DNA of 13,604 bases from an uncultured Deferribacteres bacterium. GTDB taxonomy: Bacteria > Zhuqueibacterota > Zhuqueibacteria > Zhuqueibacterales > Geothermadaptataceae. Both the position numbers and the translations under genes were made by a program. Below the pieces are notes generated by a model, which did no database searches, was not told the DNA's origin, and saw only the letters and a program-made list of their open reading frames with translations. Below, one piece after another: positions 1-13,604 of the stretch; within the stretch, counting starts at the first letter, position 1, and every line of letters begins with the position of its first letter. The stretch covers positions 1 to 13,604 of the forward strand of contig CAXHAT010000207.1 in the NCBI GenBank assembly GCA_964014485.1, in the 5' to 3' direction.

Positions 1-42
1 CCCTTTTACCGCCATCGCGCCTGCGCGATGGCGGAAAAAGGG
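1..42. repeat. Long inverted repeat (REP/REPIN-like hairpin)
   Basis: ccctttt-a-ccgccatcgcgc-ct-gcgcgatggcgg-a-aaaaggg: 19 of 20 stem positions pair (one A-A mismatch at 8/35), with a 2-nt loop. Confidence 0.8.
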
Positions 43-55
43 ACGGCGCCGACTC

Positions 56-82
56 TACCCACGCGCTGAAGCACGCGGCTAA
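56..82 (-). repeat. REP-like imperfect palindrome
   Basis: Minus strand reads ttagCCGCGTGC-TTCA-GCGCGTGGgta. The 8-bp stem has two non-Watson-Crick pairs that are G-T on the minus strand. Recalled resemblance to xCCCACGGCTTCAGCCGTGGG-type repeats associated with Y1/RAYT transposases. Confidence 0.5.
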
Positions 83-98
83 TGAGAACTTAACATTG

Positions 99-248
99 TC
101 AAGTTACTTCATCATGTACAAAAATATGATGACTTCCGCGCACTCTCGACAGATGGAACCCAAAAGCTTCAACCAAATTAACGATCTCTTGAAATCGTAT
201 GTTTTTTGACCCCGCGAGTATTTTGTCGAGCAGTTTTCGTTTTCTCAT
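99..248 (-). pseudogene. hicA: Truncated HicA-family toxin (49 aa)
   Basis: MRKRKLLDKILAGSKNIRFQEIVNLVEAFGFHLSRVRGSHHIFVHDEVT*, with the HicA motif GFxxxRxxGSHxxF. ATG at 248 follows caggaag. The ORF stops right after the GSH strand and lacks the usual C-terminal ~30 aa. No hicB in the window. Confidence 0.8.
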
Positions 249-361
249 GGCTTCCTGATCCAGCGATGAGTCACCAATTTGGCTGAAATATTTCAATGTA
301 CTTAACGATTCCGCCGTTTATAGTCAAGTTGAATGCTCGTGGGAACCGACGATCCGTCAGT

Positions 362-664
362 TCAGTTGCAATCATCCTTGCGGCGAATATATAACACTCG
401 GTCGCGGTTCAAATTCACGGATTGAACAGCTTGTTTTTGTGAGCGGATCGATTCCCGTTGTTTTGTTGGTTTTCTGCGGTTACAAGTGAAGCAGGACAGA
501 ACAAGATTTGAGAATTCGTTGTTTCCCCCAAGAGAAAGCGGGATGATGTGTTCGATGGTGAAGTTCACATACTGCCAGATTTCCGACGCATGGCAGTACT
601 CGCACAAATAGTTCGCGCGTTTTCTGACCTGTCTTTGTATGTTGGCCGGAATCTTACGCCGCAT
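362..664 (-). pseudogene. HNH endonuclease, frameshifted and internally deleted
   Basis: CEYC...IEHIIPLSLGGNNEFSNLVLSCFTCNRRK is an intact HNH zinc-finger core. The family C-terminal motifs lie in different frames: NKTTGIDPLTKT (about 467-432), LFNP (429-418), NLNRDRVLYIR (from 415). ATG at 664 overlaps the upstream gene end by 11 nt. Confidence 0.8.
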
Positions 665-941
665 TGCTCTCGATTGTCTCCCCAACAAAAGCATTGCGCG
701 TCAATCTGTTCGTAAAACTCAAATAGTCATCGAGTTCTTCATAAAGAGAAAGCTCTTTTTCTTCTTCGCTTGATAACGTCGTTTCTTTTTGTTTGAACAA
801 CAATTTTTCGATCCGGTTTTGGATCTTCGAAGAAGCTTTGAAAACAGGGACGCCCTCGGCCAATTCAATTCGTACAGCTCTTTCCGCCGGCAATGATTTT
901 GGCAGCGCGTCCAAATGCGGAATTCGTTTTTCAGCGAACAT
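654..941 (-). CDS. Small helical hypothetical protein (95 aa), putative antitoxin-like partner of the HNH gene
   Basis: Intact ORF from ATG 941 (gggaaag upstream): MFAEKRIPHL...QNRIEKLLFKQKETTLSSEEEKELSLYEELDDYLSFTNRL. Overlaps the HNH start, consistent with translational coupling. The antitoxin role is inferred from context only. Confidence 0.75.
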   Translation of the reverse strand: MFAEKRIPHLDALPKSLPAERAVRIELAEGVPVFKASSKIQNRIEKLLFKQKETTLSSEEEKELSLYEELDDYLSFTNRLTRNAFVGETIESNAA

Positions 942-980
942 TTTGCTTTCCCATCGTTTGCATTTTCTCAACTCAAGTTC

Positions 981-1009
981 AACATAATTATATACTCAAA
1001 AGAAGTCAA
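981..1009 (-). promoter_or_regulatory. Putative sigma70 promoter for the partner-HNH operon
   Basis: TTGACT (1009-1004), 17-nt spacer, TATGTT (986-981), 40 nt upstream of ATG 941. Confidence 0.5.
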
Positions 1010-1024
1010 CAACAAAGCAGAAAC

Positions 1025-1301
1025 CCGGCGACCGAGTTTTCGCTGCGCCGGGATTACCTCAACGCCGTCAATCCAAATACGAAGATTCCGTTTGCACCGC
1101 CGGAAGCAAGGAAAGTGAAAATCACTGTGTACGACGTTACCGGGCGCAAGGCGCAAGGTCGCGACGCTCGTCAATCGCAAATTTGGTCAGGACGTTCACG
1201 AAGTTGAATTCGCGCCGCAAGCTTTGTCCAGCGGAACCTGTTTCGTCGAAATGCGCGCAGGCAAATTTCGGCAAACGCGGAAGATGGCGTATGTGAGGTA
1301 A
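1025..1301 (+). pseudogene. Orphan T9SS-like C-terminal sorting domain remnant
   Basis: PATEFSLRRDYLNAVNPNTKIPFAPPEARKVKITVYDVTGRK, then after a 7-nt tandem duplication (gcgcaag x2, 1144-1157) VATLVNRKFGQDVHEVEFAPQALSSGTCFVEMRAGKFRQTRKMAYVR* (stop 1299-1301). This is a degenerate full-length NYPNPFNP-type CTD with no start codon or upstream passenger domain. Confidence 0.85.
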
Positions 1302-1456
1302 AGTTTTGAAATAGTGAGTAATAAACGTCACGGACGAGTGAATTGTTGATTCCGGAAGCGGGTTAGATTGTCAAGGACTTGAGCCGAAGGGTGTTGATTT
1401 GTTTGCTCGTCCTAAACGCATTTGAGGTAAAATGGTTGTTTTAAGAATTGTATTTC

Positions 1457-1483
1457 TTGGCTGATGCAGTTTGGCGGTATAAT
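1457..1483 (+). promoter_or_regulatory. Possible promoter for the SGNH gene
   Basis: Perfect TATAAT at 1478-1483. Only a weak -35 candidate (TTGGCT 1457-1462, 15-nt spacer). Confidence 0.3.
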
Positions 1484-1619
1484 ATGAAGGATACCGCGTT
1501 AGGAATATGGCCAAGCCAGGAAACCCATGCGTGTATGAGGGCATTGAGAGAGCGGGCTTTGAACAGGTATTTTTTGCTCATTTTTAAATAGGCGCGTACA
1601 CCCTCGCATCGCGACGAAC

Positions 1620-2807
1620 ATGAAGTCTTTTGCTCCGAACGCCGGGAAATCACGCATCATCGCTGGTTCGCTCATTTTCTTTTCCACTTTGATTGCGCTG
1701 ATCGGCTGTGAAATTATTCTCCGACAAACTTTCCTCCAAAACTACTATTTACGCCCTCCGCATTTCTCGACAGTCTTCAAGCCGAACCATCAAATCATGC
1801 CCGGAATCATTGGGCCTTCCGAGTTTGTCACAAATTCAAAAGGAATCCGCGGCGATGAATTAACGCCTGCTCACACCTACAGAATTCTGGCAATTGGCGG
1901 AAGCACAACGGAATGCCTTTATCTGGATCAAGCTGAAACCTGGACGCAGTTATTGCAGGATTCGCTCAACAAATCCGCTTTCAATGGCAAGTTGTGGATC
2001 GGCAATGCCGGTGTGAGCGGTCACAACACCAGACATCATCTCACGGCAATGCAATATCTGCCGTTGGAGAAAATGCGAATCGACGCCATTCTGGTTATGG
2101 CGGGCGTCAACGATTTTTCCGTACGTTTATCGCGCGGTGAAAATTATGACCCGGATTTTCTCGCTCGACCGGACGCTGACGCTGCGCTGCTGCATGACAC
2201 TTTTAGAGGCAGTCTCTACGCCGACCCGGATATGCCGCTCTTCAAAAGAACCGCAATTTGGCACGTGATGCGAAAACTCAAGCATATCGCCGGGCAGGAA
2301 AAAGTTCAAGACAAGACAGGAGAAATATACCTGACATGGCGAAAACACAGAAGTGAAGCGAAGACGATTCTAAACGAACTGCCGGACCTGTCCGCTGCGC
2401 TTGAAGAATATGCGCGCAACATCAACCGGATGATCGATCTTGCCCGTCAAAAGTCTATCCAACTGATTTTTATGACGCAGCCGTCGATGTGGCGGGCTGA
2501 TTTGACCGAAGAACTGGAGTCGCTTTTATGGTTTGGCGGTACAGGAGATTTCCAGAGACAAAGCGGCAACGCCTACTACTCGCCGGGAGCGCTGGCGCGA
2601 GGTATGGAAAAATACAACGAAGTTTTGCTTGAGATTTGCCGAAAGAGAAAAGTGGCATGCATCGATCTGGCCTCAATTCTGCCGAAAAACGCGTCAGTAT
2701 TCTACGATGACGTTCATTTCAATGAAAACGGCGCAAGAAAAGTGGCCGACATTCTGGCAAAATGTTTTCTTGGCAAACTGCTGAACGCCACAGACAGCGG
2801 CTCTTGA
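1620..2807 (+). CDS. SGNH/GDSL hydrolase family protein with N-terminal membrane anchor
   Basis: 395 aa. Hydrophobic helix IIAGSLIFFSTLIALIGCEIIL. SGNH blocks: ILAIGGSTT (Ser), GNAGVSG (Gly), GVND (Asn), DDVHF (Asp-x-x-His). Confidence 0.9.
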   Translation: MKSFAPNAGKSRIIAGSLIFFSTLIALIGCEIILRQTFLQNYYLRPPHFSTVFKPNHQIMPGIIGPSEFVTNSKGIRGDELTPAHTYRILAIGGSTTECLYLDQAETWTQLLQDSLNKSAFNGKLWIGNAGVSGHNTRHHLTAMQYLPLEKMRIDAILVMAGVNDFSVRLSRGENYDPDFLARPDADAALLHDTFRGSLYADPDMPLFKRTAIWHVMRKLKHIAGQEKVQDKTGEIYLTWRKHRSEAKTILNELPDLSAALEEYARNINRMIDLARQKSIQLIFMTQPSMWRADLTEELESLLWFGGTGDFQRQSGNAYYSPGALARGMEKYNEVLLEICRKRKVACIDLASILPKNASVFYDDVHFNENGARKVADILAKCFLGKLLNATDSGS

Positions 2808-3312
2808 CCGTGCGCAAGGAAATCCCCGACGAGCAGCGCGGCGCCATTGTAAAATATCTCGGACGGCAACTTTCTCTCTCCGCAAACCGCCGCAGGCTTT
2901 TGTAAGTTCTCTATGTCTTCGGCGTTGAAAAAGGGAATTTCAGCGCTTGCTGACAATGCCGCGATTGATCGCCCGTTGCCGATAACCTGTGAACGGTTGT
3001 TCTTCTCATGGGGGGCGCAATCCGGGGGCATTTTTCTTTTCCTGAAACGGATTTCCATCTTCATTTTTAAAATTGATTCCGCGCGGAATCAACATCGTTT
3101 TGGTGTTGGTTTGGAATGCTCCGGCATTCTTTCTGAAATTCAAATTACGAGCCTGTCCGGCGCGCTTCCTGTTTGACAGCCGCCGTGCAACAGCGCCTCG
3201 GTGCGTCGATTTCTCAAACTGCGCTTGCGCTGACACGGGAATCGTACGCCCTGAACAACCTTAGCGCGCTTACCGGCTCAAATCCGTCATGCACAACCTA
3301 TGGAGCTGCATA

Positions 3313-4758
3313 ATGAGACGAATCTTTTCTCTCTCTTTAACCATTCTCGTTGCAACCGCCGCTTTTTCGCAGGAAATTACTATGAAAGACGCGCAGGATA
3401 ACATTCTAGCGCAGATTCATGACGAAGGTTCCGCGGGGTCATTCTTCCTGCCGCTTGGCTCAACGCCCGGTTCTTTTTCCAACAAACTCTACAACATCGG
3501 CGGTACTCTGTACTGGAACGGCCAGCAGATTCAAACCGGCACAGCCGCCGGAGACAATCTTGGCAACCACACCGCAACCCAAAATCTCGTGCTCGGCAAC
3601 CACTGGCTTTCCTACAACGCCAACGGCGACGGCCTGCAAATCATGAACTCAGCAGGGCTTGTTCGCATTGACGGCGATCCGGTTTTTTGGCCAAGCATTA
3701 CTGCACAAAACGGCATTTATCTTGGCAGACGAGCAGGCGGGAATCACGCAATCAAAATTGCGACGTATTCCAACAATGGTCAGGAAATTCCAAAGCTCGA
3801 TTTTGCAAACACTGACGCGGATCATGATTTCCGACTAAGCTTGGAAAGCCAAAAATTCAACATTAGCGCCAAGAACACGGGGACTGTTATGGCGATAGAT
3901 AAAAGTACCGGCAATATCGGTATCGGCGGTGTCACTGATCCACAGGTTCCACTCCATATTACAGGCCCGGGGCGAACGTGGGCGACTTTACCGAAAGAAA
4001 ACGGCGTTTATTTGGGATTTCGAGGCGGCGTTAACGGACGCACAGCGGCAATCAAGCTGGCGTCTTATGGTGGAGGACCTCTTCTGGATTTCGCAAACAA
4101 TCATCAGGACTTTGATATGCGCCTTCGTTTGACTGAATCAACATTAGAATTTATCCAAAACGTTCATGATGCAAACATTGTTCGTTTTCGCAATCAAACG
4201 GTTCCTGGTTTTACAGGTACCGGCACAGGGGCTCCGGGTTTGACTATTCGATATGCGAGCGCTTCGGGAGCAGCCAACGCTGTATTTGACAATGAAGCTG
4301 GCGGCGGTATTTTGTTTTTTAGCAATGGGTCGGAAATAGCTCGCGTTCAAAGCAACGGCACATTTCGTCCGCGTGAAAACGCAAATCCGGCAGCCGGTTA
4401 CGAAGCTGATCTTGGCAGAACTAATCTTCGATGGGGCACGGTCTGGACGGTCAGTGGCGTACAGGTGCTCTCCGACCGCCGGGCGAAATCGAACATTCGA
4501 AACCTTGGTTACGGCTTGAGCGAAGTCATGCAATTGCGCCCGGTTTCTTACTCTTACAACAATCAACCAAATGGTCGTAAAAAGTTAGGGTTGGTCGCTC
4601 AGGAAGTGCAAGCCGTCGTCAACGAAGCCGTTACTGCAGGCAAAAATTCCGAAGAAATGATGAGCATGAATTACACCGAGTTGATCCCCGTTCTCATCAA
4701 AGCGATTCAGGAGCAGCAGGCGGAAATCGAAGCGTTGAAAAAAGCTTTGAACCATTAA
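3313..4758 (+). CDS. Secreted phage-tail-fiber-like protein with C-terminal peptidase S74 intramolecular chaperone
   Basis: Likely start ATG 3313 (GGAG 7 nt upstream), followed by Sec signal MRRIFSLSLTILVATAAFS-Q. Fiber motifs GDNLGNHTATQNL and GNIGIG..DP..PLHI. S74 signature SDRRAKSNI...LRPVSY...GLVAQEV...NYTELIPVLIKAIQEQQ starts at 4471. Confidence 0.88.
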   Translation: MRRIFSLSLTILVATAAFSQEITMKDAQDNILAQIHDEGSAGSFFLPLGSTPGSFSNKLYNIGGTLYWNGQQIQTGTAAGDNLGNHTATQNLVLGNHWLSYNANGDGLQIMNSAGLVRIDGDPVFWPSITAQNGIYLGRRAGGNHAIKIATYSNNGQEIPKLDFANTDADHDFRLSLESQKFNISAKNTGTVMAIDKSTGNIGIGGVTDPQVPLHITGPGRTWATLPKENGVYLGFRGGVNGRTAAIKLASYGGGPLLDFANNHQDFDMRLRLTESTLEFIQNVHDANIVRFRNQTVPGFTGTGTGAPGLTIRYASASGAANAVFDNEAGGGILFFSNGSEIARVQSNGTFRPRENANPAAGYEADLGRTNLRWGTVWTVSGVQVLSDRRAKSNIRNLGYGLSEVMQLRPVSYSYNNQPNGRKKLGLVAQEVQAVVNEAVTAGKNSEEMMSMNYTELIPVLIKAIQEQQAEIEALKKALNH

Positions 4759-4773
4759 TCCCAGGGGGACGAC

Positions 4774-7700
4774 ATGCAAATCATTCAAAAAAACAACGGA
4801 CGTCCGCTCCCCGTCCTGCTGTCTTTTCTGCTTTTGATCGCTCTGCCGTTAGCGGCGATGGCGCAGGTTTCGCTGGTGATCGAATCCGGCGGCGCACTGG
4901 AAGTCAACGGCGGCATGAAGATCGAGCTGGGCGGCGACTGGAGCAGCAACGGAACTTTTGAAGCGGGCGACGGCACGGTCGTGTTCAACGGCTCCGGTCA
5001 GCAAACCATTTCCAACACTTCCCCGACCGCATTCAACAATCTCACGGTCGATAAAGCCGGCGGCGATCTGGTCGCCGCGAGCGATTTCACCGTCGGCGGC
5101 GCACTCACGGTCACGCAGGGCGATCTCGATCTCAACGGTCAGATCATCACCCTCGACGCGGACGCGCTGTTGAGCGAAACGGCGGGCAACACCATCAAAG
5201 GCGCGACCGGTTATCTCACCACCACGCGCACGCTGGGCGCGCTCACCGCCGAGAATGTCGGCGGGCTGGGGGCGGAATTGACTACGAGCGTGAGCCTGGG
5301 TGAAACCGAGATTCGGCGCGGCCACGGCGAGCAGATCGGCAACGGCAATGAGAGCGCCCTGCGCTATTTCGATATTTTGCCAACCACCAACAGCGGCCTG
5401 AACGCAACGTTGGTTTTTCACTACGACGAATCGGAATTGAACGGCCACGCCGAGTCGAGCTTCGCGCTCTACCGCTCCTCGAACGACGGCGCGAGCTGGA
5501 CGCAGGAAGGTGGTACGCGCGACGAAATCGGCAACACCGTCACCCTCGCCGGAATCGACGCTTTCTCGCGCTGGACCGTTTCGGCGGAAGACCTGGAACC
5601 ATCTGCTGAGATCAGCAGCTTCACCGGCACAGTCACCACGGCCTGCACCATCGAACTGGCGTGGACGACGGCTACGGAAACGGACAACCAGGGCTTCCAC
5701 CTTTATCGCAGCGCGACCGAGACCGGAACCTACGCGAAAATCACGGCAACCTTGATTCCCGGACAGGGGACTTCGACAACGCCGCATGATTACACCTACG
5801 TCGATCCCAACGTCGCGCCGGGCGACACTTGGTGGTACAAGCTCGCCAGCGTCGATCTCGACAACAACGAAGGCCTGACCGGCCCGATCAGCGTGGAGAT
5901 TTCGGCGGACGCTTTTCCGCTGCCGACCGCGACGGTGAGCGGCGGCGGTGAAATTTGTCCCGGCGGCACGGCCACAATTTCAGCGGCGCTTACCGGAACC
6001 GGCCCGTGGAATCTCACCTGGAGCGACGGTTTTGTCCAAAACGGCGTTTCGGCCAGTCCGGCCATGCGCGACGTCAGCCCGGCGGCGACCACGACTTTTT
6101 CCGTGACTTCGGTGACCGACGCGACCAACTGCTCGAACGGCGGAACCGGCGACGCGACCGTCACAGTCGATGATTTGCCGATGGCGACAGTCAGCGGTGA
6201 TGCTTCGATTTGCACCGGAAGTTCCGCCACGATTTCCGTTGCGCTGACCGGAACCGGACCGTGGGATCTGGTCTGGAGCGACGGTTTCGCGCAAAACGGC
6301 GTTACCGCCAGTCCGGCGACGCGCGAGGTTTCGCCGACCGAAAACACGACCTACGAAATCACCTCCGTCACCGACGCGAACACCTGCGCGAATTCAGGAA
6401 CCGGCAGCGCGGCGATCATGGTGGTGGAAAATCCAACCGTTGCCGAGGCTGGCCCGGATCAGGAATTCTGCGGCAGCACGGTGACGCTGGCGGCGAATGC
6501 GCCGAGCGTTGGAACCGGCGCGTGGAGCGAGGTTTCCGGCGACGGCAACGGCTCATTCGCGAACGCCGCCCACCCGACGACGCAATTCACTGGCACGCAG
6601 GGCGTGACCTACACTTTGCGCTGGACGATTTCGAATTCACCCTGCGCCGATTCCCAGGACGAGGTTGAAATCAACCTGATTCCCGAAGTAACGACGGCGG
6701 ACGCGGGCGATGATCAGGCGGTGTGCGGCGTTTCGACCGATTTGGCGGCCAACACGCCGTCGGAAGGAACGGGCGCGTGGAGCGAAGTCTCCGGCGACGG
6801 CATCGGTTCTTTCAGCGACGTCAATGATCCGTCGGCGGAATTCACCGGAACACAAGGCGTGGTCTACACCCTTCGCTGGACGGTTTCCGCGCCGAATTGT
6901 CCGGATTCCGAAGATGACGTTGAAATCGATCTTCGCCTCGATCCCACGACCGCCGAGGCCGGGCCGGATCAGGAATTCTGCGGCAGCACGGTGACGTTGG
7001 CGGGGAATGCGCCGAGCGTTGGAACCGGCGCGTGGAGCGAGGTTTCCGGCGACGGCAACGGCTCATTCGCGAACGCCGCCGACCCGGCGACGCAATTCAC
7101 CGGCACGCAGGGCGTGAATTACGTGCTGCGCTGGACGATTTCCAACGCGCCATGCACGGATTCGCAGGACGAGGTCGCGGTCAATCTCTTGTTCGCGCCC
7201 ACGCCCGCGAACGCCGGGGCGGATCAAGCGCTGTGCGGCGCTTCAACCACGCTGGCCGCGAACGCACCGACCGCAGGAACCGGCAGTTGGAGCGAAATTT
7301 CCGGCGACAACAACGGCGTTTTCAGCAATGCCGCTGATCCCAACGCGACCTTCTCCGGCACGACGGACGTGACCTACACGCTGCGCTGGACCATCTCCGC
7401 GCCCGGCTGTCCTTCTTCCACCGACGATGTTGAAATCCATTTCGCCGCCGAACCGACGGAAGCCGCGGCCGGCGCTGACGTCAACATTTGTGCGGACGAA
7501 GCGACGTTGGCCGCCAACGCGCCAACGGTCGGGCAGGGAACCTGGAGCGAATCTTCGGGGGACGGCAGCGGCAATTTCGCCGATCCCAATGATCCCGAAA
7601 CGACCTTCACGGGAACTTTTGGCGTGCTTTACACGCTGCGTTGGACAATCTCGAATCCGCCCTGCGCCGATTCCCGGGATGAGATCACGGTCATGATTTT

Positions 7701-8739
7701 CCCCGGTCTCTCCATCGATCTCGGCGACGACCGCGAGATTTTCGAGGGCGCGGACGTGCTGCTCGGCGAATCGCTCACCGTCACCGGCGGAACCGGCGAC
7801 CTGAGCTACGCCTGGACGCCAACCGACGGCCTCGACGACCCAACCAGCGCCAATCCCTTCGTCACTCCCGCCGCGACGACGACCTACACGCTGGAAGTCA
7901 CCGACGAGAACGGCTGCGTGGCGGTTGATGAGATCATCGTCACTGTTAAAACCAATGCTGATGTGATCACAGATCAATGCGTGGAAATTCAAGCTTTGAT
8001 CGATGATCCTGAAACGCCGGAAGATGCGCTTGAATATTTGGAAAAAGCGAAAGAAGCTTTGGAAGGTGCTCTCGGCGCAGCAGATGACGATGAAATCGAA
8101 GATATGTTCGGAGAACTGAGAGATGCGGCTGAAGAACTGGAAGAAGCACGGGACGAACATGCCGAAACCGATGCGATAGCGAGCATACTGGCCGATCTTG
8201 CCAAACACATTGCTTTAGAAAAGCGGGACGAAATCTTTGTTTGTAATCCGAACCCATCCGGTAATTTAGCAAATGGTCTTACTGACGGCGATAATGATAT
8301 AACCGAAGGAGACGATGAATACAGTAGGGCATATTTCGGTGATGCAATCAAGGAATACGAACAAGCTTGGGAAGATTATCGAGACGCGATTGATGATCAC
8401 TGTGATGAATTGGCAAAAGTCACAATTCTGGGAGTGGCAGAAATCGAAGCCGAGCTTCCAACGCAATTCACCCTGCATCAGAACTATCCCAACCCCTTCA
8501 ACCCGAGCACGACGATTCGGTTCGATCTGCCGGAGGCGGAGGCGGTTTCGCTGAAGATTTTCAACAGCGTCGGGCGGTTGGTGCGCACGCTGGCGACGGG
8601 AGATTATACCGCGGGCGCGTACAAAATCGTTTGGGACGCACGGAATGACGCCGGTCAACGTGTTTCGAGCGGCGTTTTTATGTATGAATTACGAGCCGGG
8701 TCGTTTGTCGCGCAGCGCAAGCTTTTGTTGATGAAATGA
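4774..8739 (+). CDS. Large secreted/surface protein (1321 aa): beta-rich N-domain, FN3-like domain, 8 Ig/PKD-like repeats, acidic helical module, T9SS-like (FlgD-Ig) C-terminal domain
   Basis: RBS aggggga. Signal peptide ending AAMA-Q. FN3-like LAWTTATETDNQGFHLYRS domain at about 5599-5900, repeats at 5920-7950, and CTD LPTQFTLHQNYPNPFNPSTTIRF...WDARNDAGQRVSSGVFMYELRAG...KLLLMK at 8455-8739. Confidence 0.92.
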   Translation: MQIIQKNNGRPLPVLLSFLLLIALPLAAMAQVSLVIESGGALEVNGGMKIELGGDWSSNGTFEAGDGTVVFNGSGQQTISNTSPTAFNNLTVDKAGGDLVAASDFTVGGALTVTQGDLDLNGQIITLDADALLSETAGNTIKGATGYLTTTRTLGALTAENVGGLGAELTTSVSLGETEIRRGHGEQIGNGNESALRYFDILPTTNSGLNATLVFHYDESELNGHAESSFALYRSSNDGASWTQEGGTRDEIGNTVTLAGIDAFSRWTVSAEDLEPSAEISSFTGTVTTACTIELAWTTATETDNQGFHLYRSATETGTYAKITATLIPGQGTSTTPHDYTYVDPNVAPGDTWWYKLASVDLDNNEGLTGPISVEISADAFPLPTATVSGGGEICPGGTATISAALTGTGPWNLTWSDGFVQNGVSASPAMRDVSPAATTTFSVTSVTDATNCSNGGTGDATVTVDDLPMATVSGDASICTGSSATISVALTGTGPWDLVWSDGFAQNGVTASPATREVSPTENTTYEITSVTDANTCANSGTGSAAIMVVENPTVAEAGPDQEFCGSTVTLAANAPSVGTGAWSEVSGDGNGSFANAAHPTTQFTGTQGVTYTLRWTISNSPCADSQDEVEINLIPEVTTADAGDDQAVCGVSTDLAANTPSEGTGAWSEVSGDGIGSFSDVNDPSAEFTGTQGVVYTLRWTVSAPNCPDSEDDVEIDLRLDPTTAEAGPDQEFCGSTVTLAGNAPSVGTGAWSEVSGDGNGSFANAADPATQFTGTQGVNYVLRWTISNAPCTDSQDEVAVNLLFAPTPANAGADQALCGASTTLAANAPTAGTGSWSEISGDNNGVFSNAADPNATFSGTTDVTYTLRWTISAPGCPSSTDDVEIHFAAEPTEAAAGADVNICADEATLAANAPTVGQGTWSESSGDGSGNFADPNDPETTFTGTFGVLYTLRWTISNPPCADSRDEITVMIFPGLSIDLGDDREIFEGADVLLGESLTVTGGTGDLSYAWTPTDGLDDPTSANPFVTPAATTTYTLEVTDENGCVAVDEIIVTVKTNADVITDQCVEIQALIDDPETPEDALEYLEKAKEALEGALGAADDDEIEDMFGELRDAAEELEEARDEHAETDAIASILADLAKHIALEKRDEIFVCNPNPSGNLANGLTDGDNDITEGDDEYSRAYFGDAIKEYEQAWEDYRDAIDDHCDELAKVTILGVAEIEAELPTQFTLHQNYPNPFNPSTTIRFDLPEAEAVSLKIFNSVGRLVRTLATGDYTAGAYKIVWDARNDAGQRVSSGVFMYELRAGSFVAQRKLLLMK
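5920..7950 (+). repeat. Intragenic tandem domain repeats, ~255 nt (85 aa) period
   Basis: Two type-A units (LPxATVSG..IC..TGTGPWxLxWSDGF, starts 5920 and 6175), five type-B units (AxAGxD..C..LAxN.P..GxGxWSExSGD..YxLRWTxS..C, from 6433) and one type-C unit (DLGDD..YAWTP..TTTYTLEVTDENGC). Confidence 0.9.
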
Positions 8740-8795
8740 GCTTTACCGTCGGTTATCAGCTTGTTTTGGGGCGTGATTAATTTGAGGATCACGAG

Positions 8796-8829
8796 AAAGC
8801 GCGGCTCGGTTTTGGGCCGCGCTTTTTTT
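8796..8829 (+). terminator. Rho-independent terminator
   Basis: aaaGCGCGGCTC-ggtttt-GGGCCGCGC-TTTTTTT: 9-bp GC stem (one G-T pair) plus 7 T, lying between two convergent genes. Confidence 0.85.
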
Positions 8830-8890
8830 ATGTCAATTCTTGCGGAGCGAGTTAGGCGGCTTGCGGGAAGGCCAGGCTGATTCGGGGCGG

Positions 8891-9175
8891 TCAGATTTTT
8901 CCTTCATACAAATCCGCTATGGGGAAGCACATTTCGTAATCGTTCCAGTTCAGGTTGCCGTAAAGAATGCGAAACTTTCGGAATTCGTTCACATCGCGGT
9001 ATTTTCTGAAGAGCGGGTGGCGCGCCTTGTCAATAAATGGTTTGAAGTCTACGATTGTTTCAACGCCGTCACTAAACCATAAATGCAAACGCAATTGGTC
9101 TTTGTATTCCGCTTTGACGATTTCGATCAAATCCGTATCGCCATTCGAAATTTCTGAAATCCTGATGTTTTTCAT
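8891..9175 (-). CDS. DUF2442 domain protein (DhiA-like putative antitoxin)
   Basis: 94 aa, intact: IVKAEY...RLHLWFSDG...VDF...F..F.I.YGNLNW.DYEMCFP..DLY. ATGA overlap with the upstream DUF4160 gene. Confidence 0.85.
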   Translation of the reverse strand: MKNIRISEISNGDTDLIEIVKAEYKDQLRLHLWFSDGVETIVDFKPFIDKARHPLFRKYRDVNEFRKFRILYGNLNWNDYEMCFPIADLYEGKI

Positions 9176-9478
9176 TTGAGTCTTCGGTCGATCGTTTGAG
9201 ACTTTATTTTTTTGCCGAGAACAAAGAAGTCAATCCATCTTTGAACGATTTCGTCGGCGTGAAGCGTTACCAGTTTCTTGAAATTATCGAGTTGTTTTCG
9301 TGGTAATTTTTCTCTGCCGCGAACCGGCTTGAACACAATTTCGATGATCTCGCCTTCTTCGATAACAAACTCCGCTTTCATTTCACAGTCCTGAAAACGC
9401 CCATGCACATGGACCGGCTCATGTTCATTGGCGAAGAAGAAAACCACCAAGCCAAAGTATTCATATCAGTTTTGGCAT
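9172..9478 (-). pseudogene. DUF4160 domain protein (DhiT-like putative toxin) with +1 frameshift after codon 4
   Basis: ATG CCA AAA CTG [A at 9466] TAT GAA TAC TTT GGC TTG. Removing one A gives MPKLYEYFGLVVFFFANEHEPVHVHG, the typical DUF4160 N-terminus. As sequenced, the ATG frame stops after 5 codons (MPKLI*). Confidence 0.8.
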
Positions 9479-9523
9479 ATTTATTCTTCGTCTTGTGTGT
9501 ATTTCTCTAATCATCATTTGAAA

Positions 9524-9552
9524 AATGTAGTCGATCAACGCTCTAAAATCAA
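9524..9552 (-). promoter_or_regulatory. Putative sigma70 promoter for DUF4160/DUF2442
   Basis: TTGATT (9552-9547), 17-nt spacer, TACATT (9529-9524), in AT-rich DNA upstream of ATG 9478. Confidence 0.4.
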
Positions 9553-9600
9553 ATTATTTCTTAAAGTGAAATTTGCGGCGTATCAGGTCATTGCAATGAG

Positions 9601-9812
9601 TTGTCGAAAGCGGAAGCGGTAATGCTGACGATTTTTAACAGCGCCGGGCGGCTAGCGCCACGCTGGCGGCGGGGGATTATGCCGCGGGCGCGTACAAAAT
9701 CGTTTGGGACGCGCGGAATGACGCCGGTCAACGTGTTTCGAGCGGCGTTTTTATGTATGAATTACGCGCCGGGTCGTTCGTGGCGCAGCGGAAATTATTG
9801 TTGATGAAGTGA
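9601..9812 (+). pseudogene. Orphan T9SS-like CTD fragment, direct repeat of 8527-8739
   Basis: Manual alignment gives 26 substitutions plus a 1-nt deletion (at 9658-9659) over 213 nt, about 87% identity. Restored frame: LSKAEAVMLTIFNSAGRLA.TLAAGDYAAGAYKIVWDARNDAGQRVSSGVFMYELRAGSFVAQRKLLLMK*. Confidence 0.9.
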
Positions 9813-9876
9813 GTCTGTCGGCAGTTAACCGTGAGCTGTAAATAGTAGTTTTTTTGGGAGCGATTTATAGATCATG

Positions 9877-9914
9877 AAAAGCACGGCTCGGTTTTGTACG
9901 GGGCGCGCTTTTTT
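9877..9914 (+). terminator. Degenerate copy of the 8796-8829 terminator
   Basis: aaaagcacggctcggttttg-tacg-gggcgcgctttttt versus aaagcgcggctcggttttg-ggccgcgcttttttt. Also positioned to terminate the convergent PQQ-like gene. Confidence 0.6.
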
Positions 9915-9937
9915 GTCTATATTCTGGCCGTCGAATC

Positions 9938-12653: not shown

Positions 12654-13604
<951 letters not shown>

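What the first reader, a model, noticed from the sequence alone, without database searches (positions are those of the whole stretch)
362..9930. Recurrent 'TA module back-to-back with headless secretion-signal CTD' architecture: CTD as a possible recombination landing pad
Seen: the same layout occurs twice. (1) The minus-strand partner-HNH pair and its promoter are followed 15 nt later by a plus-strand orphan CTD (1025-1301). (2) The minus-strand DUF4160/DUF2442 pair and its promoter are followed 48 nt later by a plus-strand orphan CTD (9601-9812). The TA families differ and the two CTDs are not recent copies of each other, so these look like independent events. Known: T9SS-like CTDs are highly multicopy in FCB-related genomes. 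Inference: small cassettes carrying [CTD 3' end + terminator + convergent TA] recombine into the 3' ends of CTD genes, keep the gene functional and displace its old 3' end downstream. That would be an integrase-free route for TA spread and for shuffling secreted-protein loci. No recombinase gene is present in the window.
Basis: partly seen in the sequence, partly recalled or inferred. Interest (0 to 1): 0.8.

Follow-up and report, generated by a model that had tools for sequence, protein, structure and literature searches.

The report
Toxin-antitoxin inserts flanked by duplicated gene ends
The two "headless" secretion-tag fragments are leftover copies of the ends of two genes, pushed aside when small toxin-antitoxin cassettes were spliced in at the gene ends; this happens at many ordinary genes in this genome, so the secretion tag itself is not special.

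Summary
Both observations hold. Orphan 2 (9602-9914) is a degraded direct repeat of the end of the big gene (8528-8828, including stop and terminator). The two copies bracket a 773-bp DUF4160/DUF2442 cassette. Orphan 1 (1033-1301) copies the last ~268 nt of a CTD gene on contig C414 and ends exactly at the stop codon.

The CTD is incidental. A genome self-comparison found 19 loci where the end of a gene of 250 aa or more is duplicated across a 0.35-1.6 kb insert. Thirteen of these inserts are recognised TA pairs, and only 2 of the 19 targets are CTD genes. The repeat boundary sits within -25 to +10 nt of the stop codon in 15 of 17 3'-end cases. The same layout occurs in relatives and in a Myxococcales MAG.

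Differences between the two copies are mostly synonymous (151 of 229). This points to two functional alleles joined by homologous recombination, not to in-place decay.

The closest known case is "insertion with long target duplication", described for restriction-modification systems. In the searches I ran I found no description of it for TA modules.

The "CTD landing pad" idea is not. Earlier notes of this scan describe similar gene-end duplications in other genomes.

The parts
1..103 (.). Truncated arm of a palindromic repeat element: hairpin at 1-42 and outer arm AACTTAACATTGTCAAG at 87-103. The contig starts inside it.
   Evidence: The fold gives -33 kcal/mol, z = -6.0. About 10 related copies exist in the genome, several at contig ends; the C122 end, C356 start and C414 start share a 55-mer.
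99..296 (-). HicA-like toxin ORF (65 aa). Its stop codon lies inside the outer arm of the element.
   Evidence: Pfam HicA_toxin, 30.8 bits against a cut-off of 27.
362..694 (-). HNH endonuclease ORF (110 aa).
   Evidence: Pfam HNH, 50.6 bits. NCBIfam gives only sub-threshold hits to the HNH regions of IscB, Cas9 and PtuB.
654..971 (-). Partner ORF (105 aa) upstream of HNH and overlapping it. Function unknown.
   Evidence: No family matched at E <= 0.001.
1033..1301 (+). Orphan CTD 1: a displaced copy of the last ~268 nt of the CTD gene on contig C414. It is frameshifted by a 7-nt tandem duplication near 1144-1157, and homology stops at the stop codon (1299-1301).
   Evidence: CTD HMM. It has a single blastn hit in the genome, C414:1785-2009 at 83%; alignment. 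Codon positions of mismatches are 12/13/26.
4774..8739 (+). Intact 1321-aa secreted-type protein gene with a T9SS-like CTD at 8455-8736. This is the target gene of insertion 2.
   Evidence: Pfam K319L-like_PKD, FlgD_ig and Por_Secre_tail; CTD HMM.
8528..8828 (+). Left, functional copy of the direct repeat: the last 212 coding nt including the stop codon (8737-8739), the 3' UTR, and an intrinsic-terminator hairpin at 8793-8829.
   Evidence: Alignments; hairpin -25.4 kcal/mol, z = -5.9; terminator-like scan hit.
8829..9601 (-). Inserted 773-bp TA cassette: DUF2442 (DhiA-like antitoxin, 8891-9175) and DUF4160 (DhiT-like toxin, 9172-9450), with about 150 nt of 5' region. It is single-copy in the genome.
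   Evidence: Pfam 35.8 and 42.7 bits, both above cut-offs. NCBIfam DhiA and DhiT hits are far below cut-offs. There is no paralogous DNA copy.
9602..9914 (+). Orphan CTD 2: the right, displaced copy of the repeat. It has a 1-nt deletion near 9658, a stop at 9810-9812 and a degraded terminator at 9876-9913. The native downstream sequence follows.
   Evidence: 79% identity to 8528-8828. Identity in 30-nt windows runs 0.73, 0.80, 0.90, 0.97, 1.00, 0.93, 0.80, then 0.50-0.77 after the stop. There is no significant homology upstream of 9602: 298 of 500 shuffles score as well. Hairpin -17.6 kcal/mol.

Best explanation
The two headless CTDs are displaced 3' ends of two CTD-bearing genes. One parent is the gene at 4774-8739. 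The other is the gene now on contig C414. In each case a small addiction cassette (one or more TA modules) lies directly after the intact gene end, and a second, decaying copy of that end lies on the far side of the cassette, followed by the native downstream DNA.

This is one instance of a genome-wide and cross-phylum pattern. It was described for restriction-modification systems as 'insertion with long target duplication'.

Most likely mechanism (inferred, not shown):
1. The cassette arrives on a short piece of DNA from a related strain. That piece also carries the donor's copy of the last 60-440 nt of the gene next to which the cassette sat.
2. The piece is circularised, or acts as an 'ends-in' substrate.
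3. It integrates by one homologous crossover within the gene end (Campbell-type, host RecA, no element-encoded recombinase).
4. The gene stays intact, and the other allele of the gene end is left as a headless orphan.

The flanking repeats could recombine the insert out again. Loss of a TA module is counter-selected, which would explain why mostly addiction modules survive between such repeats.

The CTD matters only because CTD genes are ordinary targets, at the very end of the coding sequence. How a cassette first comes to lie within about 20 nt of a stop codon is not explained.
For: Shown:
- Sharp direct repeats flank the TA cassette in the window.
- Orphan 1 is a unique copy of the C414 gene end, stopping at the stop codon.
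- The genome self-blast gave 58 repeat pairs at 49 loci. At 19 of these loci the repeat is the end of an ORF of 250 aa or more. Of those 19 inserts, 13 are Pfam-recognised TA pairs, 1 is putative, and 5 are other or unknown (DUF3800, Schlafen/AlbA_2, unknown ORFs).
- The inserts are single-copy. The junctions show no microhomology, no terminal inverted repeats and no TTRRRY starts. TA orientation relative to the target gene is 6 against 6 (my count from the coordinates).
- The boundary next to the insert lies within -25 to +10 nt of the stop codon in 15 of 17 3'-end loci. The other two, the window and C183, lie just after terminator hairpins. Under a uniform null P is about 1e-9.
- Mismatches between the copies fall on codon positions 1/2/3 as 56/25/148, with 151 synonymous and 78 non-synonymous, over 13 loci. 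This rejects a model of 'in-place duplication plus neutral orphan' (chi-square 41, P = 1e-9). A Myxococcales locus shows the same bias, 5/4/17.
- Polarity: the target gene of the C33 locus has orthologues in 8 relatives, and none has the BrnTA cassette within 1.5 kb. One of the 8 is from the unpublished genome G023; 7 of 7 hold without it.
- Same layout elsewhere:
  - 3 of 29 ParE loci in three order-level relatives, against 4 of 20 in this genome;
  - 1 of 7 DUF4160 relatives, with the boundary exactly at a stop codon;
  - 1 of 3 BrnTA relatives, with a 440-bp repeat at 95%.
- Method control: 1 of 80 mostly vertically inherited MazF loci has flanking repeats.
- The three true DGR loci are told apart by their A/T-only mismatch spectrum; the other 55 pairs in the table, the window included, were not flagged.

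Literature: long target duplications often span start or stop sites of genes and flank RM systems without other mobile elements (PMC2853133, passages read).
Against: - No circle, empty-site allele or patchwork allele was observed for the window itself. No same-genus genome is held. The only public runs are low-depth contigs that show no joint across the cassette.
- The synonymous bias could also arise if an in-place duplication was followed by allelic replacement of the functional gene through ordinary recombination.
- The identity profile of the window repeat is uneven: 97-100% in the middle and 73-80% at the sides. A simple single crossover does not predict this; it suggests later gene conversion.
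- The model does not explain why the primary junction is so close to stop codons.
- Orphan 1 is more decayed, with only 51% of differences at third positions.
- The link from C414 to the window is inferred. The 55-mer graph allows C356 as the neighbour instead.
- On C162 and C106 the CTD fragments have no intact parent on the contig.
Confidence: 0.6

Rival explanations
1. Mobile cassettes made of [CTD 3' end + terminator + TA] use the highly multicopy CTD as a generic homologous landing pad. They therefore hop between different CTD genes and shuffle secreted-protein loci.
For: - The genome holds 255 CTD loci.
- 7 of 10 headless CTD fragments lie next to small cassettes.
- The C162 fragments are as similar to CTDs on other contigs (86-87%) as to each other, and no intact parent is on the contig.
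- CTD targets are 2 of 19, or 3 of 20, against about 3.5% expected.
Against: - 17 of 19 loci of this kind use non-CTD genes.
- Orphan 2 matches its neighbour through the 3' UTR and terminator, and orphan 1 has only one match in the genome.
- None of 10 loci with relatives of this TA has a CTD nearby.
- No cassette is found at two different CTD genes; the inserts are single-copy.
- 3 of 10 headless CTDs have no cassette.
Confidence: 0.1
2. In-place long target-site duplication. The chromosome is nicked on the two strands 60-440 nt apart near a gene end. A foreign TA fragment is joined in, for example by Ku/LigD end joining, and the overhangs are filled in. This gives two initially identical copies. 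The present synonymous differences come from later allelic exchange of the functional gene.
For: - The repeat boundaries are sharp and lack microhomology.
- The cargo sits in either orientation.
- The genome encodes a Ku homologue.
- The youngest pairs are 94-98% identical.
- The window's repeat has a 100% identical core.
- The RM literature favours a break-linked origin (PMC2853133).
Against: - The codon-position spectrum (65% third positions, 66% synonymous) rejects simple neutral decay of one copy.
- No known bacterial process makes staggers of this length.
- This model gives no reason for one nick to lie at stop codons.
Confidence: 0.22
3. Tandem paralogues. Each site once held two full-length tandem copies of the gene with a TA between them, and the second copy later lost its 5' part.
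For: This would also give synonymous-biased differences and similar 3' UTRs. CTD genes do occur in tandem families, for example on C138.
Against: - It needs a deletion ending exactly at the cassette edge at 19 loci, including single-copy genes such as gyrA.
- 8 of 8 orthologues of the C33 target show one copy only.
- There is no remnant homology upstream of 9602.
Confidence: 0.05
4. Assembly artefact. Strain variants of the gene end were wrongly chained around a strain-specific TA in this metagenome-assembled genome.
For: The genome is a MAG of 465 contigs, and cover in the public runs is only about 5x.
Against: - The junction 'cassette end | repeat start' must exist in reads for the contig to be built.
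- The copies differ by indels and by 5-20%.
- The same layout is seen in other assemblies from other phyla.
Confidence: 0.03

Closest known systems
Insertion with long target duplication of restriction-modification systems (Nobusato et al. 2000, Gene 259:99, seen only as a reference; Furuta, Abe and Kobayashi 2010, NAR, PMC2853133, passages read)
   Same: A small addiction module with no transposase or integrase, flanked by direct repeats of tens to hundreds of bp of unique target sequence. The repeats often span a gene's stop or start, so the gene stays intact. It is seen in several phyla, and the mechanism is unknown.
   Different: - The cargo here is type II TA modules (RNase-type toxins) plus a few other small genes, not RM systems. 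DNA cutting by the cargo therefore cannot be the common cause.
- Dozens of cases occur in one genome.
- The codon-position evidence that the two copies are alleles is new here.
- The 2013 review by Mruk and Kobayashi (PMC3874152, passages read) ascribes this mode to RM systems only.
- A 2026 TA study (PMC13617665, passages read) calls TA integration unclear and holds no match to 'direct repeat'.
Campbell-type single-crossover integration, as with suicide plasmids carrying a gene fragment (textbook knowledge, recalled)
   Same: It produces exactly this product: the vector or cargo flanked by two copies of the cloned fragment. The gene stays intact only if the fragment includes a gene end. Cargo can sit in either orientation, and the event depends on host RecA.
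   Different: No natural circular [TA + gene end] intermediate has been shown here. Nor has the way a gene end becomes attached to the cassette.
Prophage-type integration into the 3' end of a protein gene with a substitute end (e14 and phage 21 at icd of E. coli; recalled)
   Same: The gene keeps a functional end supplied by the insert, and the old end is displaced as a pseudo-fragment.
   Different: Those elements carry a site-specific integrase and always target the same gene. Here there is no integrase, and each cassette has a different target.
C-terminal displacement and orphan arrays at cdiA and rhs loci (recalled)
   Same: Headless, co-oriented 3' fragments lie downstream of a full gene and share homology with it. 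Recombination is proposed to swap the ends.
   Different: The orphans here are near-copies of the same domain, not alternative toxin tips. The genes between are TA pairs in either orientation, not immunity genes.
Diversity-generating retroelement VR/TR repeats
   Same: A direct repeat of 100-170 bp of a gene's very 3' end lies a few hundred bp downstream. Three real DGRs in this genome were picked up by the same repeat screen.
   Different: The DGR pairs show adenine-specific mismatches and an Avd gene (C135, C343, C74). The window pair shows no base bias and has no Avd or reverse transcriptase nearby.

Membership tests
Insertion with long target duplication (as defined for RM systems in PMC2853133) | The insert is flanked by direct repeats longer than 30 bp that are target sequence, not a dispersed repeat. 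| tested here: met
   Window 8528-8828 against 9602-9914. Other CTDs match more weakly and only in the coding part.
Insertion with long target duplication (as defined for RM systems in PMC2853133) | A related genome shows an empty site with one copy of the repeat. | not testable with these tools
   No same-genus genome is held, and the public runs are uninformative. At a sister locus (C33), 8 of 8 orthologues lack the cassette, but these relatives are only at family or order level.
Insertion with long target duplication (as defined for RM systems in PMC2853133) | No other mobile-element gene is in the insert. | tested here: met
   The insert holds only DUF4160 and DUF2442. The 8 tyrosine-recombinase hits in the genome lie elsewhere.
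Insertion with long target duplication (as defined for RM systems in PMC2853133) | The cargo is a restriction-modification system. | tested here: not met
   The cargo is a TA pair. The window therefore works like this class but extends it to a new cargo.
T9SS-type C-terminal sorting domain (Por_Secre_tail / FlgD_ig-like) | Sequence match to the domain at the C-terminus of a secreted protein. | tested here: met
   The intact gene matches FlgD_ig at 41 bits (above its cut-off of 27) and Por_Secre_tail at 20 bits (below 27). Both orphans match my genome-built CTD profile. The orphans lack a protein body and are frameshifted, so they cannot act as sorting signals.
Type II TA DhiT/DhiA (DUF4160/DUF2442) | Both proteins match the family models above the cut-offs. 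| tested here: inconclusive
   Pfam DUF4160 scores 42.7 against 23 and DUF2442 scores 35.8 against 23.9, so both are met. The NCBIfam equivalogs score 20.4 against 100 and 25.2 against 200, so they are not met. Toxicity was not tested.
Diversity-generating retroelement (VR/TR) | Mismatches between the repeats are confined to adenines of one copy, with Avd and a reverse transcriptase nearby. | tested here: not met
   The window pair's mismatches by base are A9 C11 G10 T10 in the left copy and A12 C8 G11 T9 in the right copy. The three true DGR loci score 17-19 of 18-22 mismatches at one base.
Integron gene cassette | The cassette begins with TTRRRY and ends with an attC hairpin (R''/R' boxes). 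| tested here: not met
   The junctions of the window and 19 other cassettes were inspected. None begins with TTRRRY and there is no shared end motif. This was by eye; no attC model was run.
Site-specific integrative element in a gene 3' end | An integrase gene in the element and a short identical core at both ends. | tested here: not met
   There is no integrase. The repeats are 301-313 nt long and 79% identical.

The most novel reading that the evidence does not exclude
Type II TA modules, together with RM systems and some single defence-type genes, form a class of recombinase-free mobile cassettes. They travel between related genomes with a captured piece of a host gene end, which serves as their attachment site. 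They integrate and excise by host homologous recombination and are kept in place by addiction. The tight placement of the primary junction within about 20 nt of stop codons, or at the end of terminators, would point to a still unknown insertion step linked to the ends of coding regions or transcripts.
Probability: 0.25. Interest if true: 0.8.

Novelty: new member of a known kind. Interest (0 to 1): 0.55.

Why it matters
How chromosomal TA modules get into genomes is still described as unclear (PMC13617665, passages read). This genome offers more than a dozen clean cases of one route. That route needs no element-encoded enzyme, keeps the target gene intact and leaves a datable scar. It links TA modules to the older, unexplained "long target duplication" of RM systems. 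It also argues that the common factor is addiction rather than DNA cutting. The synonymous-site signature is a simple computational test that can be run on any genome. For annotation, it explains "orphan" gene-end fragments next to TA pairs as scars, not as genes.

Tried and rejected
- **Public reads.** One study with three runs is held, as low-depth Logan contigs. No contig bridges or skips the cassette, and no loose end at position 1 was listed. This says nothing either way.
- **Close relatives for empty sites of the window.** None is held in the genus. The DNA search of 41 genomes found only paralogous CTDs and distant TA homologues.
- **Integron reading of the left-end palindromic element.** GTTRRRY and RYYYAAC words are present but in the wrong order for an attC. 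Dropped.
- **DGR reading of the repeats.** Excluded by the mismatch spectrum.
- **Extending orphan 2 to the CTD start.** The upstream alignment is no better than shuffles.
- **Defining cassette ends by comparison with homologous cassettes in relatives.** Homology covers the ORFs only.
- **Three-copy arrays as a test for crossover patchwork.** The C396 repeats turned out to be tandem DUF433 genes, not target copies. C35 gave interspersed variants with no clear pattern.
- **Longer repeats (over 500 bp).** C225 is a duplication of UPF0175 antitoxin genes around a PIN gene, and the ORFs of C117 are unannotated. Neither is counted.
- **A ParE alignment for a broad locus search.** It was too diverse for the tool. 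The MazF search that replaced it returned mostly Clostridia loci, which I take (from recall) to be a vertically inherited mazEF locus; 1 of 80 had repeats.
- **Literature.** Searches for TA plus target duplication or direct repeats found no description of this layout for TA modules. Most subscription journals are not in the library.
- **RNA-templated capture of gene ends.** I considered this because the boundaries look like mRNA 3' ends. I set it aside because the cassettes include their own promoters and sit in both orientations.

Full report
**What the window is.** The window is a whole 13,604-bp contig (C207) of an 8.4-Mb metagenome-assembled genome in 465 contigs, 97% complete and 0.8% contaminated. 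Its right end is a 16S rRNA gene. Its left end lies inside a palindromic repeat element.

**Checking the observation.** Both layouts exist as described.
- Left layout: HicA (99-296), HNH (362-694) and an unannotated partner ORF (654-971) on the minus strand. A CTD fragment follows on the plus strand at about 1033-1301.
- Right layout: DUF2442 (8891-9175) and DUF4160 (9172-9450) on the minus strand (weak DhiA and DhiT similarity). A CTD fragment follows at 9602-9812.
- Both fragments are broken: a 7-nt tandem duplication in the first and a 1-nt deletion in the second.
- They are not copies of each other.

**What the orphans are.**
- Orphan 2 is a direct repeat of the end of the neighbouring gene, 8528-8828 against 9602-9914. 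It covers the coding end, the stop, the 3' UTR and a terminator hairpin. The hairpin is perfect in the left copy and degraded in the right copy. Homology does not extend upstream of 9602. The 773 bp between the copies are the TA cassette.
- Orphan 1 has one match in the genome, the CTD of a 416-aa fn3/F5_F8 gene on contig C414 (83% over 232 nt). The homology ends exactly at the stop codon.
- C414 carries two more TA-like pairs after that gene. It starts with the last 55 nt of the same rare palindromic element in which the window begins. The orientation fits the order 'gene, TA island, orphan 1, native downstream'. The 55-mer is also shared with C122 and C356, so the join is likely but not proven.

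**The pattern is general and not about the CTD.**
- A CTD profile built from the genome finds 255 loci. Ten are headless fragments. Seven of those lie beside small cassettes and three do not.
- A blastn of the genome against itself then showed many short direct repeats 0.35-1.7 kb apart: 58 pairs at 49 loci after filters.
- Three of these loci are true DGRs, with an Avd gene and mismatches at a single base only. Some others are repeats inside one gene or tandem TA genes, for example the three DUF433 genes on C396.
- In 19 loci the repeat is the end of an ORF of 250 aa or more: seventeen 3' ends and two 5' ends, one of them gyrA.
- Of those 19 inserts, 13 hold Pfam-recognised TA families (RelE/ParE, PIN, HigB, BrnT/BrnA, Phd/YoeB, HEPN/NTase, HicA, MazF, DUF433 and others). 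One is putative and five are other or unknown.
- Only two of the 19 targets are CTD genes (the window and C183).
- The inserts are single-copy and share no end motif, inverted repeat or microhomology. They sit in either orientation (6 against 6, my count from the coordinates).

**A rule for the junction.** The repeat boundary that touches the insert lies within -25 to +10 nt of the target's stop codon in 15 of 17 3'-end loci. One of these, C60, is counted from my reading of the orphan's own stop; the script value was -105. The other two, the window (+89) and C183 (+65), lie just after terminator hairpins. A uniform placement of the stop within the repeat gives P of about 1e-9. Orphan 1 obeys the rule (0 nt). 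Selection for an intact gene explains why the repeats span a gene end. It does not explain this tight placement, which remains unexplained.

**Evidence on mechanism.**
- Over 13 loci with long target genes, the two copies differ at codon positions 1/2/3 in 56/25/148 cases. There are 151 synonymous and 78 non-synonymous changes.
- If one copy had simply decayed after an in-place duplication, third positions should hold at most about 45% of the differences. The data reject this (chi-square 41, P = 1e-9). Most of the divergence therefore arose while both sequences were working gene ends, so they are two alleles.
- This fits a cassette that arrived together with a donor strain's gene end and integrated by one homologous crossover. 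That event yields this product and needs no recombinase.
- Allelic replacement after an in-place duplication remains possible. The uneven identity profile of the window's repeat suggests later gene conversion.
- The genome has a Ku homologue, so end joining or circularisation is conceivable. None of its 8 tyrosine-recombinase hits falls within a repeat-flanked cassette; the nearest is about 2.6 kb from the C91 cassette.

**Polarity and spread.**
- Orthologues of the C33 target gene in 8 relatives lack the BrnTA cassette. One locus is from the unpublished genome G023; 7 of 7 hold without it.
- Flanking repeats occur at 4 of 20 ParE loci here and 3 of 29 in three order-level relatives.
- They occur at 1 of 7 DUF4160 relatives: a Myxococcales MAG, with the boundary exactly at a stop codon and the same third-position bias.
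- They occur at 1 of 3 BrnTA relatives, with a 440-bp repeat at 95%.
- They occur at 1 of 80 MazF loci, which are mostly Clostridia loci that I take from recall to be a vertically inherited mazEF locus and so serve as a method control.
- None of 10 loci with relatives of the window's TA has a CTD nearby.

**Comparison with what is known.**
- The layout matches 'insertion with long target duplication', found for RM systems of all types in several phyla. There too the repeats often span start or stop sites, and the mechanism is unknown (PMC2853133, passages read; the 2000 paper in Gene was seen only as a reference).
- A 2013 review that compares RM and TA systems ascribes this mode to RM systems only (PMC3874152, passages).
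- A 2026 study of TA acquisition calls integration unclear and holds no match to 'direct repeat' (PMC13617665, passages).
- My searches for TA plus such repeats found nothing. The library lacks most subscription journals, so a prior description cannot be excluded.
- Earlier notes of this scan describe integrase-less islands and defence cassettes flanked by duplicated gene ends in other genomes. They are leads that I did not test.

**Verdict.** The idea that the CTD is a special landing pad is not. The finding is a new cargo class (TA modules, many in one genome) for a known but unexplained insertion mode. It adds a new line of evidence that the duplicated ends are alleles.

Noticed in passing
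window 1-103; also C122:24077-24256, C125:616-745, C184:3621-3663, C131:~90-180, C356:1-55, C414:1-55, C449:~1750-1826: A palindromic element of 34-180 nt. Its outer arms (YTTGACAATGTTAAG and its complement) directly follow, or include, the stop codons of small genes in at least 7 places. Several contigs break inside it. The longer copies hold nested hairpins.
   Followed up: partly
genome-wide, e.g. C122:24183-24220: A REP-like unit, the hairpin CGCCGGGCTGAAGCCCGGCG followed by CTAATGAG, gives roughly 100 blastn matches across the genome. An IS200-like Y1 transposase ORF lies on C241 between 76-86-bp repeats.
   Followed up: no
C135:8116-8942, C343:687-1444, C74:31523-32402: Three diversity-generating retroelement loci: bAvd genes, with VR/TR repeats showing 17-19 of 18-22 mismatches at a single base. 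One target has an FGE-sulfatase-type C-terminus.
   Followed up: partly
window 12654-13604: The 5' two thirds of a bacterial 16S rRNA gene, cut by the contig end. Depth in the public runs is very high here because other organisms also match it.
   Followed up: no
window 3289-4758: A 489-aa protein with a C-terminal Peptidase_S74 domain (intramolecular chaperone of endosialidase; I recall it as typical of phage tail fibres). It lies directly upstream of the large CTD protein, and a paralogue is on C408.
   Followed up: no
window 5000-8000: The repeat-rich middle of the 1321-aa gene has 60-65% G+C, against 42-55% in the rest of the window.
   Followed up: no
window 362-694: The best NCBIfam similarity of the small HNH protein is to the HNH region of IscB (47 bits against a cut-off of 175). 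Its upstream partner matches no family, so whether the pair is a TA module is open.
   Followed up: partly
C106:24661-26951 (L001 4660-6952): Four CTD fragments in 2.3 kb are interleaved with small unannotated ORFs; one pair overlaps by 4 nt and one ORF has a weak retropepsin-like match. The contig ends in the last fragment, so the parent gene is not seen.
   Followed up: partly
C225:8675-11022: A 667-bp repeat at 96.7% identity contains UPF0175 antitoxin genes on both sides of a PIN gene. This looks like a duplication of TA genes themselves, not of a target.
   Followed up: partly
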